From the NCBI RefSeq assembly GCF_049060185.1, contig NZ_JBMEQO010000002.1: a stretch of DNA of 64,000 bases; one strand, 5' to 3'. The notes below the pieces were generated by a model. That model saw only the letters and a program-made list of their open reading frames with translations, was not told the origin of the DNA and searched no databases. The number at the start of each line of letters is the position of its first letter. The stretch's first letter is position 1. A program made the position numbers and the translations under genes. Shown piece after piece: positions 36,692 to 38,437 of this stretch. Origin of the DNA: Nannocystis pusilla. Its GTDB lineage: Bacteria; Myxococcota_A; Polyangia; Nannocystales; Nannocystaceae.

Positions 36692-37864
36692 TCAGCGCTC
36701 CGGTTTGCGGCCGGAGGCGACGTAGATCGGCCAGGTGGCGAAGCCGCGGCGGCTGCGGATCGCGTAGACGTGATCGCGGAAGCCCATGCGCAGGCGCTCG
36801 ACCACCTCCGGCGGCTGCTGCGTGGCGGCCGACAGCTCGCCGGTGACGTACTCCTCCCAGCTCTCGATCACCCGCGCGAAGTCGTCGATCGCGGTGTTGT
36901 TGTTGGTGATCGGGATCTGCTCCATGCGCACGTCCTCGAGGCCCATGTCGGTGAGCTGCGAGAACATCTTGGGCCCGAAGTTCATGTCCATGCCGAGGCT
37001 CTGGGCGATCTTCACGGCCTGCTGGTAGGTCCACGCGACCGACTCGTGGCGCGGGTAGCCGTAGTTGTGCGCCGTCATCTCGTTGGTCAGGTAGACCCGA
37101 CCGCCGGGCTTACAGATCCGCACCAGCTCGCGCAAGATGCTCGACGGATCGTTGAAGATCTGCAGCGCCAGGCGCGAGGTGACGAAGTCGAAGCTGTTCG
37201 ACGGCAAGAACAGGTGGGTCGCGTCGCCGAACTGATACTCGATGTCGGTGATGCCGAACTCGCGGGCCATCTGCTGCGCGTACTGAAGGAACGGCCGCGA
37301 GTGGTCGACGCCGACGATGTACGCGGGCTCGAACTCCTTGTAGACGAGCACCGCGAAGTCGCCGATCCCGCAGCAGATGTCGGCGATCCGCATGCGCTTG
37401 CCGAGGCCGTGGCGGCGCAGCAGCTCGCGCTCGTGCGACCACACGATGTTGGTCTGGGTGCGCAGGACCGGCACGAGCTGGTCGTTCTCGATGACGCCCT
37501 GGCCGGGGTAAAACGCCTTGTCGTACTGCTCGACGATGGTGTTGCCGAACTGCGCGCCGAGGAAGCCGAACCGCAGCGGCGCCCACGGGACGACGCTCGA
37601 GACGACGAGCTTGAGCTTGAGGCTCGGGTGGCGCTCGGCGCAGGCGGCGATGAAGCGCGCGAGCTCGAGGAAGCCGGTGTGGTTGAGGTAACGCAGGCGC
37701 TTGAAGTTGAGGTAGAGGACGCCGCGCACGGCGTCGGCGGCGTGGTCGAGGCGCGCCCGCACCGGCGCGAACGCCTCGGGGCCGGCGGGCCGCAGCGTCC
37801 CCTCGAGCGCGACCTCCTGGTCGTTCTCGCTGAAGCGGATCGAAAACGGTTGCTCGTTCTCCAT
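36692..37864 (-). CDS. fusion protein: N-terminal SiaC-like (DUF1987-like) domain plus class I SAM-dependent methyltransferase
   Basis: The intact 390-aa ORF has an N-terminus, FSIRFSENDQEVALEGTLRPAGPEAFAPVRARLDHAADAVRGVLYLNFKRLRYLNHTGFLELARFIAACAERHPSLKLKLVVSSVVPWAPLRF, that parallels the SiaC-like gene. The C-terminus has MTase motif I (RIADICCGIGDFAVLV) and a post-I acidic residue (YIVGVDHS). Confidence 0.65.
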   Translation of the reverse strand: MENEQPFSIRFSENDQEVALEGTLRPAGPEAFAPVRARLDHAADAVRGVLYLNFKRLRYLNHTGFLELARFIAACAERHPSLKLKLVVSSVVPWAPLRFGFLGAQFGNTIVEQYDKAFYPGQGVIENDQLVPVLRTQTNIVWSHERELLRRHGLGKRMRIADICCGIGDFAVLVYKEFEPAYIVGVDHSRPFLQYAQQMAREFGITDIEYQFGDATHLFLPSNSFDFVTSRLALQIFNDPSSILRELVRICKPGGRVYLTNEMTAHNYGYPRHESVAWTYQQAVKIAQSLGMDMNFGPKMFSQLTDMGLEDVRMEQIPITNNNTAIDDFARVIESWEEYVTGELSAATQQPPEVVERLRMGFRDHVYAIRSRRGFATWPIYVASGRKPER

Positions 37865-37876
37865 ACCCAGCTCGGC

Positions 37877-38437
37877 TCACTCGTGCGGGACAGTAAGGAC
37901 GATGACGCCGGCGCCGTCGCCCTCGCGCAGCGCGAGCTCGACCCCGTGGAGCGCGACCAATTCGAGCAGCCCGACCTCGGCCGGCGGACGCAGGATCATC
38001 GACTCGAACTCGGCCTCGTAGCGAGCGCGCGCGTCCGCGGGCGCGACCCGCCCGAGGTCGTCGCGCAGCCGCTGCGCGAGCGCCTCGTCGGTCGGTATCG
38101 TCAGCTCGGCGATCACGTGCTCGTCGGTGCGCCCGACCTCGACCACGATCTCGCCCTCGCTCGGCCGGGCGCGGAACACGTACTCGAGCACCTCGTTGAG
38201 ATAGGTCGAGAGGCGCGTGGTCAGCTGCTCGGGATCGAAGCGATCGGAGGCGACGAAGCGCGCGATGTAATCGGCCAGCCGCTGGCAGTGCGTCCAGCTG
38301 TCATAGAGCCCGCGGACGCTGATCCGGAGGGTGAGGATCGGGCTCGAGCCGGGAGGTGAGGGGGCGCGAGGTCGGAGGTCATGCCGGGGCGAGGGCGGGA
38401 GAGGGGCAGCAGGCGCACCTCGCCCGGATCCGGGCAC
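37877..38437 (-). CDS. hypothetical regulator, possibly a second SiaB-like GHKL-type kinase; first gene of the operon; 5' end uncertain
   Basis: ...ILTLRISVRGLYDSWTHCQRLADYIARFVASDRFDPEQLTTRLSTYLNEVLEYVFRARPSEGEIVVEVGRTDEHVIAELTIPTDEALAQRLRDDL... resembles the SiaB-like protein in pattern (L..Y......R.......L...L.E..E.......G.i.v). The N-terminal 40 aa are Pro/Arg-rich, and an out-of-frame ATG at ~38370 suggests another indel. Confidence 0.45.
   Translation of the reverse strand: MPGSGRGAPAAPLPPSPRHDLRPRAPSPPGSSPILTLRISVRGLYDSWTHCQRLADYIARFVASDRFDPEQLTTRLSTYLNEVLEYVFRARPSEGEIVVEVGRTDEHVIAELTIPTDEALAQRLRDDLGRVAPADARARYEAEFESMILRPPAEVGLLELVALHGVELALREGDGAGVIVLTVPHE

What the first reader, a model, noticed from the sequence alone, without database searches (positions are those of the whole stretch)
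36692..38437. Second SiaB-like/SiaC-like pair in which the SiaC-like switch domain is fused to a SAM-dependent methyltransferase
The N-terminal ~105 aa of the 36692-37864 protein (…ALEGTLRP…YLNFKRLRYLNHTGFLELARFIAACAE…LKLVVSSVVPWAPLRF) mirror the stand-alone SiaC-like protein (…HFEGVLRLS…LQFLNSSGINMLYKFAIAARK…IKVHGSSNIPWQGKSL). The rest is a class I MTase with motif I DICCGIGDF. The gene immediately upstream resembles the SiaB-like kinase. This suggests a branch of the partner switch whose output is a methylation activity controlled by phosphorylation of its own N-terminal switch domain. That would be an unusual covalent coupling of a partner-switch phosphoprotein to an enzyme.
Basis: inference. 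Interest (0 to 1): 0.7.

Follow-up and report, generated by a model that had tools for sequence, protein, structure and literature searches.

The report
Degenerate partner-switch pair carrying a methyltransferase
The two genes are real, diverged copies of the neighbouring kinase/phosphoprotein switch pair, with the second copy fused to a methyltransferase. The copies have lost the kinase's catalytic asparagine and the target's phospho-serine, and they match the unstudied bgrS-bgrT genes of a known rhizobial signalling operon.

Summary

A-F-[dCache-HAMP-PP2C]-B-C keeps this order in 72 of 80 fetched loci. Relatives of F occur in 451 species genomes. The cassette is collinear with, and 30-47% identical to, a S. 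meliloti pSymB operon that fits the published bgrRSTUWV system, so A≈BgrS and F≈BgrT. Here a class III cyclase replaces the diguanylate cyclase.

The acceptor position (SiaC T68) is invariant Ser in C (75/75) but Asn/His/Phe in F (72/73; His62 here). The Mg-binding N-box Asn is present in B (74/74) and absent from A (0/69; Tyr here).

My best reading is a phosphorylation-independent pseudokinase/pseudo-substrate pair that tethers a dedicated methyltransferase to the switch. The substrate, and whether the enzyme is an input or an output, remain unknown. This is a new member of a known kind and a moderately interesting lead.

The parts
37877..38437 (-). A: diverged, probably kinase-dead paralogue of the slr1658/SiaB-like kinase (BgrS-like). 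The N-terminus is uncertain. The ORF starts at GTG 38437. An ATG at 38381 would be in frame if a C-run had one more base, as it does in Nannocystis sp. RBIL2.
   Evidence: NCBIfam slr1658_superfam E=5e-9, 15 of 15 orthologues. hhalign against B 98.5%. N-box 'NEVLEYVFR' has Tyr where B has the Mg-binding Asn; no A protein has Asn (0 of 69). Present directly upstream of F in 77 of 80 loci. Start-codon issue.
37526..37864 (-). F, N-terminal domain (aa 1-113): STAS/SiaC-fold, slr1659-like domain without the phospho-acceptor. The motif is N61-H62-T63-G64.
36692..37525 (-). F, methyltransferase part (aa 114-390): conserved lid (YDxxFYPGQ), Rossmann core with motif I DICCGIGDF, and a C-terminal cap. 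BgrT-like.
34311..36670 (-). Membrane sensor phosphatase dCache-HAMP-PP2C (SpoIIE), BgrU/SiaA-like. In this window the last ~27 codons are out of frame: the ORF as read ends at 34325, and the in-frame version would end at 34311.
   Evidence: Pfam SpoIIE 2.4e-31, HAMP 4.5e-13, dCache_1 2e-6. NCBIfam SiaA 103 bits against a cut-off of 700. Frameshift relative to L001/L002 at ~34407.
33725..34287 (-). B: slr1658-superfamily, SiaB-like Ser kinase (BgrW-like) with an intact N-box (NELIENAVKF) and SGLG lid. In this window a 1-nt deletion at ~34219 separates the probable ATG (34287) from the ORF as read (33725-34183).
   Evidence: slr1658_superfam E=1e-37, above cut-off; SiaB_fam_kinase 7e-6; HATPase_c 6e-4. 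Asn in 74 of 74. Frameshift.
33354..33728 (-). C: stand-alone slr1659-superfamily STAS-like phosphoprotein (BgrV-like) with the LNSSG acceptor motif (S73).
   Evidence: slr1659_superfam E=9e-37, above cut-off. STAS matched by 13 of 13 orthologues, SiaC by 6 of 13 weakly. Acceptor Ser retained in 75 of 75: NSSG 74, NSAG 1.
32114..33340 (-). Class III adenylate/guanylate cyclase with an N-terminal ~110-aa helical domain. Probable output of the B/C switch in Nannocystis.
   Evidence: Guanylate_cyc 5e-26. Sits 13 nt downstream of C. The N-terminal domain is shared with PP2C-only neighbours of the cassette in 56 of 80 loci.

Best explanation
The window, from a Nannocystis genome, carries a six-gene minus-strand operon: A - F - sensor PP2C - B - C - cyclase.

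B, C and the PP2C form a working SiaABC/BgrUWV-type partner switch. B is a Ser kinase, C is a STAS-like phosphoprotein, and a membrane dCache-HAMP-PP2C dephosphorylates C.

A and F are an ancient duplicate of B and C that has lost phosphotransfer on both sides. A lacks the Mg-ATP-binding Asn. The STAS-like domain of F lacks the acceptor Ser and is fused to a SAM-binding-competent, small-molecule-type class I methyltransferase.

Most likely mechanism (inferred, not shown): A binds the STAS-like 'handle' of F without phosphorylating it, much as the kinase-inactive anti-sigma factor UsfX binds its antagonists in M. tuberculosis (my recollection). This makes the methyltransferase a dedicated subunit of the switch. 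Its activity or availability would then be set by protein-protein competition with the phosphorylatable B/C pair, not by phosphorylation of F itself.

The cassette is the orthologue of bgrSTUWV of Sinorhizobium meliloti, so A corresponds to BgrS and F to BgrT. Here it is attached to a class III nucleotide cyclase instead of the diguanylate cyclase BgrR.

Shown: the homologies, the fold, the loss of the catalytic and acceptor residues, the conserved synteny, and intact SAM motifs.
Inferred: A-F binding, the competition, the direction of signalling, and the substrate.
For: Homology of the two pairs.

Fold of the F N-domain.

Reciprocal loss of function:
- N-box Asn is present in B (74 of 74) and absent from A (0 of 69).
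- The acceptor Ser is present in C (75 of 75). In F the position is N/H/F in 72 of 73.
- The position is equated with SiaC N67-T68-S69 at the start of alpha2 (PMC8457831). Helix alpha2 starts at residue 62 in the model.

Dedicated association:
- The order A-F-PP2C-B-C is found in 72 of 80 loci across Myxococcota, Alpha- and Gammaproteobacteria and Verrucomicrobiota.
- A/F and F/PP2C overlap by 4 nt in Chthoniobacteraceae and Sorangium gene calls.

The methyltransferase is probably active: SAM-motif residues and about 35 further residues are invariant in 66 sequences. Its nearest structures are small-molecule or peptide methyltransferases.

Bgr identity:
- S. meliloti pSymB carries GGDEF-EAL - A - F - PP2C - B - C as a tight hexacistronic unit.
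- Identity to the window proteins is 30-47% over full length.
- The U = PP2C, W = kinase, V = STAS assignments agree with the summaries in 10.1101/674879 and PMC8457831.

The neighbouring effector varies (class III cyclase 17 loci, GGDEF-EAL 10, PP2C-only many) while A-F stays constant.
Against: No binding, kinase or methyltransferase data exist for A or F.

I could not read Baena et al. 2019, so any phenotype reported there for bgrS or bgrT could contradict this reading.

Invariant Ser90 (SSxxPW, also conserved in C) and the lineage-specific Thr63 could be non-canonical acceptors for kinase B.

B itself lacks a canonical G1 box (DxGxG), so rules taken from classical GHKL kinases may not fully apply to this superfamily.

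The loci were retrieved by homology to F, so 'F is always in the cassette' is shown but 'the cassette always has F' is not.

In this window B and the PP2C carry frameshifts, so this particular copy may not be functional, or the assembly has errors.
Confidence: 0.6

Rival explanations
1. F is an output enzyme whose methyltransferase activity is switched by phosphorylation of its own STAS-like domain. A (or B) would be the kinase and the PP2C the phosphatase.
For: The STAS/SiaC-type fold and the paired kinase-like gene in one operon with a PP2C. Nannocystis F has Thr63 next to the canonical position, and Ser90 is invariant. B is an apparently competent kinase encoded in the same operon.
Against: The canonical acceptor is His62 here and N/H/F in 72 of 73 family members. 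Thr63 lies in a variable column. A lacks the N-box Asn in all 69 sequences that could be scored. Ser90 is equally conserved in C, where the canonical Ser already exists, which suggests a structural role.
Confidence: 0.1
2. Input or decoy model. The acceptor-less STAS domain of F is a non-phosphorylatable pseudo-substrate that titrates kinase B, or competes with C for its effector. The occupancy of the methyltransferase domain (SAM/SAH or substrate) is thereby fed into the B/C switch, and A buffers F.
For: F keeps the residues shared with C around the interaction motif: G22, R25-P26, L-N61, F65, S90, W94. The methyltransferase pocket is highly conserved. A-F is constant while the effectors vary, as expected for a core or input element rather than one of several outputs.
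Against: There is no evidence for cross-pair binding. In Sorangium and Polyangium, B and C are fused into one polypeptide, which favours an insulated B-C interaction. The A and F families have each diverged far from B and C (16-24% identity in hhalign).
Confidence: 0.15
3. Adaptation model. F methylates a protein of the system, such as the HAMP-proximal helix of the sensor PP2C, or B/C or the effector, as CheR does for chemoreceptors. A acts as its adaptor.
For: F is strictly co-encoded and translationally coupled with a dCache-HAMP sensor. LahSB, which methylates a peptide C-terminus, is the second-best structural match.
Against: There is no similarity to CheR (no PF01739 hit). Most structural neighbours act on small molecules. 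No methylation-site motif was examined or found.
Confidence: 0.1
4. A and F are merely co-transcribed metabolic genes (a quinone or small-molecule methyltransferase plus a small protein) with no role in the switch.
For: Database names such as 'quinone methyltransferase', 'UbiE' and 'class I SAM-dependent methyltransferase'.
Against: All UbiE/MenG equivalog scores are far below cut-off (66-70 bits against 158-420). Both proteins are homologous to the switch pair. Synteny holds across four phyla.
Confidence: 0.03

Closest known systems
BgrRSTUWV partner-switching system of Sinorhizobium meliloti (Baena et al. 2019, Environ Microbiol 21:3379; summarised in PMC7647112 and PMC8457831)
   Same: Same five genes in the same order: A=BgrS, F=BgrT, PP2C=BgrU, B=BgrW, C=BgrV. 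Identity over full length is 30%, 47.5%, 45.6%, 40% and 47%. The motif pattern is also the same: BgrW has ENA, BgrV has NSSG, BgrS has E-V in place of E-N, and BgrT has N-N-T-A.
   Different: The effector differs. In S. meliloti a GGDEF-EAL protein (BgrR) comes first in the operon. In the window a class III cyclase comes last. The match of the S. meliloti locus to the bgr names rests on gene order, the three published domain roles, and my recollection that bgrR is SMb20447. The original paper was not readable.
SiaABCD of Pseudomonas aeruginosa (SiaA PP2C, SiaB kinase, SiaC DUF1987 phosphoprotein, SiaD DGC)
   Different: No Pfam SiaC or NCBIfam SiaB/SiaA model is reached at its cut-off. SiaABCD has no second, degenerate pair and no methyltransferase. 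Its output is a DGC.
slr1658 / slr1659 superfamily (NCBIfam NF047703 / NF047705; Synechocystis slr1658, Zer et al. 2018 as cited in PMC7555055)
   Same: B and C score above the curated cut-offs (129 and 126 bits against 100). A and the F N-domain are significant sub-threshold members.
   Different: A and F are a diverged sub-branch lacking the catalytic Asn and the acceptor Ser, and F carries a methyltransferase. I did not test whether the cyanobacterial loci have such a pair.
SpoIIAA/SpoIIAB/SpoIIE and RsbV/RsbW/RsbU partner switches; kinase-inactive UsfX with RsfA/RsfB in M. tuberculosis (the latter from my own knowledge)
   Different: No sigma factor is involved. The STAS-like domain is fused N-terminally to an enzyme.
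3mgg (Methanosarcina mazei methyltransferase, function unknown) and small-molecule or peptide class I methyltransferases (LahSB, PEAMT, TmtA/GtmA, UbiG, RebM)
   Different: Only about 19% identity. None of these has a STAS-type N-terminal domain. The match does not indicate a substrate.

Membership tests
SiaC family / DUF1987 (PF09345) | Pfam model matched at significance | tested here: not met
   No hit for the window's C or for F at E<=0.1. 6 of 13 C orthologues hit weakly, best E=0.018.
SiaC family / DUF1987 (PF09345) | SiaC-like three-dimensional fold | tested here: met
SiaC family / DUF1987 (PF09345) | Phospho-acceptor Thr/Ser at the first position of helix alpha2, after a conserved Asn (SiaC N67-T68) | tested here: not met
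   F has N61-H62, and the family has N/H/F in 72 of 73. The stand-alone C does meet this feature (N72-S73; Ser in 75 of 75).
SiaB family protein kinase (NF038262) | Model score at or above the cut-off of 85 bits | tested here: not met
   B scores 25.6 bits (E=7e-6), with 9 of 13 orthologues weakly positive. A gives no hit in 15 of 15.
slr1658 superfamily regulator (NF047703) | Model score at or above 100 bits | tested here: inconclusive
   B scores 129 bits (met). A scores 35.8 bits, E=5e-9, below the cut-off, but 15 of 15 orthologues hit (best 2e-18) and hhalign against B gives 98.5%.
slr1659 superfamily regulator (NF047705) | Model score at or above 100 bits | tested here: inconclusive
   C scores 125.8 bits (met). 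The F N-domain scores 42.9 bits, E=5e-11, below the cut-off. hhalign against C gives 98.4% over 106 columns.
GHKL (HATPase_c) anti-sigma-type Ser kinase | N-box Asn that ligates Mg-ATP (xNAxKF) | tested here: not met
   A has Tyr in the window and A/V/T/L/Y/I/M/F in all 69 scored sequences. B keeps Asn in 74 of 74. The alignment to the histidine-kinase N-box is shown.
STAS / anti-sigma-factor antagonist (PF01740) | SpoIIAA-like fold | tested here: met
Bgr partner-switching cassette (bgrSTUWV) | Collinear S-T-U-W-V gene order with full-length similarity to the S. meliloti proteins | tested here: met
   The order is conserved in 72 of 80 loci.
Bgr partner-switching cassette (bgrSTUWV) | GGDEF(-EAL) diguanylate cyclase BgrR as the regulated effector in the operon | tested here: not met
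   The window has a class III cyclase downstream of C. GGDEF-EAL is adjacent in only 10 of 80 loci, all from Rhizobiales-type genomes.
Bgr partner-switching cassette (bgrSTUWV) | Phosphorylation of the STAS protein by W and dephosphorylation by U control the effector | not testable with these tools
   Known only from the literature on S. meliloti.
Class I SAM-dependent methyltransferase | Rossmann fold with motif I (D/E-x-G-x-G-x-G-type), an acidic residue at the end of beta2, and the G-D-A adenine loop | tested here: met
UbiE/MenG quinone methyltransferase | Equivalog model cut-off | tested here: not met
   66-70 bits against cut-offs of 158-420.

The most novel reading that the evidence does not exclude
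A-F is a phosphorylation-independent arm of a partner switch. A kinase-dead, anti-sigma-like protein holds a methyltransferase by a built-in pseudo-antagonist (STAS) domain. It releases or activates the enzyme when the sensor PP2C dephosphorylates the genuine antagonist C. This would be the first partner switch that controls a methylation reaction, and it would couple Ser phosphorylation, cyclic-nucleotide synthesis and methylation within one cassette found in hundreds of species.
Probability: 0.25. Interest if true: 0.75.

Novelty: new member of a known kind. Interest (0 to 1): 0.5.

Why it matters
Partner switches are usually drawn with three parts: phosphatase, kinase and STAS protein. Here a widespread cassette, with relatives of its methyltransferase in 451 species genomes across four phyla, always carries two extra genes.

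In the papers I could read, those two genes in the one studied example (bgrS and bgrT) are named only as part of 'BgrSTUWV', with no role given. This analysis shows that they are a degenerate copy of the kinase/STAS pair welded to a conserved methyltransferase. It also shows that phosphotransfer was lost on both sides.

That gives bgrS and bgrT a concrete, testable role: a pseudokinase-tethered methyltransferase. It corrects database names such as 'UbiE' and 'quinone methyltransferase'. It also shows that the same regulatory cassette is plugged into different effectors: class III cyclase, diguanylate cyclase and PP2C.

If the methyltransferase proves to be controlled by, or to feed into, the switch, it would link methylation to Ser/Thr partner switching.

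Tried and rejected
- Pairwise BLASTP of the F N-terminus against C, and of A against B, found no significant alignment. Only profile methods detect the relationship.
- Profile searches of C and B against PDB sequences gave only marginal STAS and histidine-kinase N-box hits (E 0.05-0.3). SiaB and SiaC were not found.
- The Pfam SiaC/DUF1987 assignment was rejected as a membership claim.
- UbiE/MenG/BioC/ArsM assignments for the methyltransferase were rejected because scores are far below cut-off.
- The promoter and terminator consensus scan of 31800-38800 was uninformative: 0 promoters, and terminator-like hits at chance level and on the wrong strand.
- The AFDB50 fold library was unavailable.
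- Baena et al. 2019 could not be read.
- A full-text search for SMb20447-SMb20452 found nothing. A search for STAS + methyltransferase + partner-switching found no relevant paper.
- The heterocyst partner-switch preprint concerns a different STAS system.
- My first iterated 'cyclase' HMM cross-hit PP2C-only proteins. This traced to a shared N-terminal domain, not contamination.
- I considered His62 as a phospho-His site and rejected it, because only 14 of 73 family members have His there.
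Full report
**What is there.**
The region lies in 70% G+C DNA. It is 98% identical over 6.5 kb to Nannocystis pusilla Na p29 and Nannocystis sp. RBIL2. Six tightly spaced minus-strand genes form an apparent operon:

| Gene | Coordinates | Size | Description |
|---|---|---|---|
| A | 38437-37877 | 186 aa | kinase-like paralogue |
| F | 37864-36692 | 390 aa | STAS-like domain + methyltransferase |
| PP2C | 36670-34325 | 781 aa | membrane dCache-HAMP-SpoIIE/PP2C phosphatase |
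| B | 34183-33725 as read | 152 aa as read | kinase-like |
| C | 33728-33354 | 124 aa | STAS-like phosphoprotein |
| cyclase | 33340-32114 | 408 aa | class III adenylate/guanylate cyclase |

**Checking the observation.**
- The methyltransferase part of F is clear. Pfam Methyltransf_11/25/31 and Ubie_methyltran give E down to 4e-19 over aa 128-270. Motif I, DICCGIGDF, is at aa 162-170.
- The claimed resemblance of F aa 1-105 to C is invisible to BLASTP but robust at profile level:
  - NCBIfam slr1659_superfam matches F aa 5-94 at E=5e-11, and matches C at 9e-37.
  - hhalign of independently built alignments of the two families gives 98.4% probability, E=4e-15, over 106 collinear columns.
- AlphaFold2 models of full-length F (pLDDT 92.5, pTM 0.82) and of the N-domain alone (pLDDT 92.3) give a beta-beta-alpha-beta-alpha-beta-alpha-beta domain for aa 7-113.
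- The upstream gene A likewise shows nothing by BLASTP. It matches NCBIfam slr1658_superfam (E=5e-9; 15 of 15 orthologues, best 2e-18). It aligns to the B family with 98.5% probability, E=2e-15, over 150 columns.

**Family name.**
The correct family is the slr1658/slr1659 superfamily. B and C pass NCBI's cut-offs, while A and F are sub-threshold members. Pfam SiaC/DUF1987 is touched only marginally by 6 of 13 C orthologues (best E=0.018). Classical STAS is matched by 13 of 13. SiaB_fam_kinase is hit weakly by B only.

**Related loci.**
- Full-length (~385-430 aa) relatives of F with about 50% identity occur in Myxococcota, Alpha- and Gammaproteobacteria and Verrucomicrobiota.
- A scan of one genome per species found 451 genomes that encode a relative of F. 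I fetched 80 of these loci.
- ORF extraction and iterated HMM searches show the order A-F-PP2C-B-C in 72 of the 80 loci. The exceptions are contig ends, one locus where A was not detected, and three Nannocystis MAGs in which B-C follows F directly.
- Gene calls in Chthoniobacteraceae and Sorangium show 4-nt overlaps between A and F and between F and the PP2C gene.
- F is therefore a dedicated component of this cassette, not a stray fusion.

**The key test: the phospho-site and the kinase site.**
- In SiaC the phosphorylated residue is T68, within N67-T68-S69 at the N-terminus of helix alpha2 (PMC8457831). In SpoIIAA it is the Ser after the conserved Asp (established knowledge).
- In the alignment of the C and F families the conserved Asn aligns. 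In the model, alpha2 starts at residue 62.
- C proteins have LNSSG in 74 of 75 and LNSAG in 1, so the acceptor Ser is always present.
- F proteins have Asn (53), His (14), Phe (5) or Ser (1) at the acceptor position, out of 73. The window has N61-H62-T63-G64. Thr63 sits in a column that varies V/T/I/A/L/R.
- On the kinase side, B proteins have the GHKL N-box NELxENAxKF, with Asn in 74 of 74, and an SGLG lid in 65 of 66. The N-box aligns to histidine-kinase N-boxes.
- A proteins keep NE(L/V)LE, but the Asn is replaced in all 69 sequences that could be scored, by A/V/T/L/Y/I/M/F. The window has Tyr.
- Loss of the Mg-ATP ligand in A and loss of the acceptor in its cognate domain, across four phyla, argue that this pair does not use phosphotransfer at the canonical site.
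- Caveats:
  - Ser90 (SSxxPW) is invariant, but it is equally conserved in C.
  - B lacks a canonical DxGxG box, so the rules for classical GHKL kinases may not transfer completely.

**The methyltransferase.**
- Residues of the SAM site (D162, G166, G168, D187, G213-D214-A215) and about 35 others are invariant or nearly invariant in 66 sequences. These include a conserved lid (Y114-D115-x-x-F-Y-P-G-Q) directly after the STAS-like domain. This suggests an active enzyme with a specific pocket.
- No NCBIfam equivalog is approached.
- The substrate class is probably a small molecule, or possibly a peptide terminus. It is not identified.

**Comparison with known systems.**
- tblastn against plasmids and chromids found one copy of F on pSymB in S. 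meliloti strains.
- In an annotated copy the locus reads GGDEF-EAL protein (564 aa) - A (172 aa, mis-named UbiE) - F (392 aa) - SpoIIE phosphatase (786 aa) - 'ATP-binding protein' (187 aa) - hypothetical protein (112 aa, weak STAS hit). All lie on one strand and are tightly packed.
- This matches the published hexacistronic bgrRSTUWV operon. There BgrU (PP2C) and BgrW (kinase) set the phosphorylation state of the STAS protein BgrV, which controls the diguanylate cyclase BgrR (10.1101/674879; PMC8457831; PMC13438883).
- The window proteins are 30, 47.5, 45.6, 40 and 47% identical to these five proteins.
- A and F are therefore orthologues of BgrS and BgrT. In the papers I could read these are mentioned only as part of 'BgrSTUWV', with no role given. 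The primary paper was not available. The locus-to-name link rests on gene order, domain roles and my recollection that bgrR is SMb20447.

**Effector variation.**
- The gene next to the cassette is a class III cyclase in 17 loci (including this window), a GGDEF-EAL protein in 10 loci, and a ~310-340 aa PP2C-only protein in many others.
- The window cyclase's N-terminal ~110-aa helical domain is shared with those PP2C-only proteins. A gene with this domain is adjacent in 56 of 80 loci.
- This domain is a candidate docking site for C, by analogy with SiaC binding the SiaD stalk (inference).

**Mechanism.**
- Shown: two homologous pairs, one with intact catalytic and acceptor residues (B and C) and one without (A and F); a conserved operon with a sensor PP2C; intact SAM motifs.
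- Inferred: A binds the STAS-like domain of F without phosphorylating it. The methyltransferase is thereby a tethered, dedicated subunit of the switch. Its state is set by protein-protein competition with B and C rather than by its own phosphorylation.
- Alternatives that remain open:
  - F acts as a non-phosphorylatable decoy that feeds SAM or substrate status into the B/C switch.
  - F acts as a CheR-like adaptation enzyme.
  - Non-canonical phosphorylation occurs at Ser90 or Thr63.

**Verdict.**
The feature is real and belongs to a conserved, already named (Bgr-type) partner-switch cassette of the slr1658/slr1659 superfamily. This instance is attached to a class III cyclase. The fusion is neither unique nor, as far as the sequence shows, phospho-controlled. 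As far as I could find, nobody has described BgrS/BgrT-type proteins as a pseudokinase/pseudo-substrate duplicate carrying a methyltransferase. That recognition gives a clear experimental handle. Interest is moderate.

Noticed in passing
window ~38364, ~34407, ~34219: The window has three 1-nt deletions in G/C runs relative to Nannocystis sp. RBIL2; the last two are also seen against N. pusilla Na p29. They put the likely ATG of A (38381) out of frame, frameshift the last ~27 codons of the PP2C gene, and cut the first ~35 codons off B (probable true start ATG 34287). They could be assembly errors or real inactivating mutations.
   Followed up: partly
window 33010-33340 (-), N-terminal ~110 aa of the cyclase 32114-33340: This helical N-terminal domain is shared with ~310-340 aa SpoIIE/PP2C-only proteins encoded next to the cassette in Alpha- and Gammaproteobacteria and Sorangium. 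A gene with such a domain is adjacent in 56 of 80 loci. It is a candidate common docking module for the STAS-like protein C on different effector enzymes.
   Followed up: partly
window 30330-31853 (+): A Ser/Thr protein kinase with a C-terminal cyclic-nucleotide-binding domain (Pkinase 3e-37, cNMP_binding 3e-17) lies convergent with the cyclase gene. It is a possible reader of the cyclase's product.
   Followed up: no
window 38356-40755 (+): A large FHA-domain protein (FHA 2e-16) is divergently transcribed from A. FHA domains bind phospho-Thr, so a link to the Ser/Thr signalling genes here is conceivable.
   Followed up: no
window 25518-29204 (-): A 1228-aa Ser/Thr kinase with an AAA_16 ATPase domain lies nearby. 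The neighbourhood is dense in eukaryotic-like kinases, which is typical of myxobacteria.
   Followed up: no
L082 (Sorangium cellulosum So ce56) 13697-17981; also L022, L025-L034 and others: In Sorangium and Polyangium, B and C are fused into one 305-aa protein. They are followed by a PP2C-only protein, a third kinase-like/STAS-like pair and a PAS-GAF-STAS protein. This looks like a cascade of partner switches, and the fusion is Rosetta-stone evidence that B and C interact.
   Followed up: partly
L084 (S. meliloti pSymB copy) 6462-6980: The BgrS-like gene A is annotated as 'ubiquinone biosynthesis methyltransferase UbiE' although it has no methyltransferase domain (no Pfam hit). This is probably annotation spill-over from the neighbouring gene.
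   Followed up: yes
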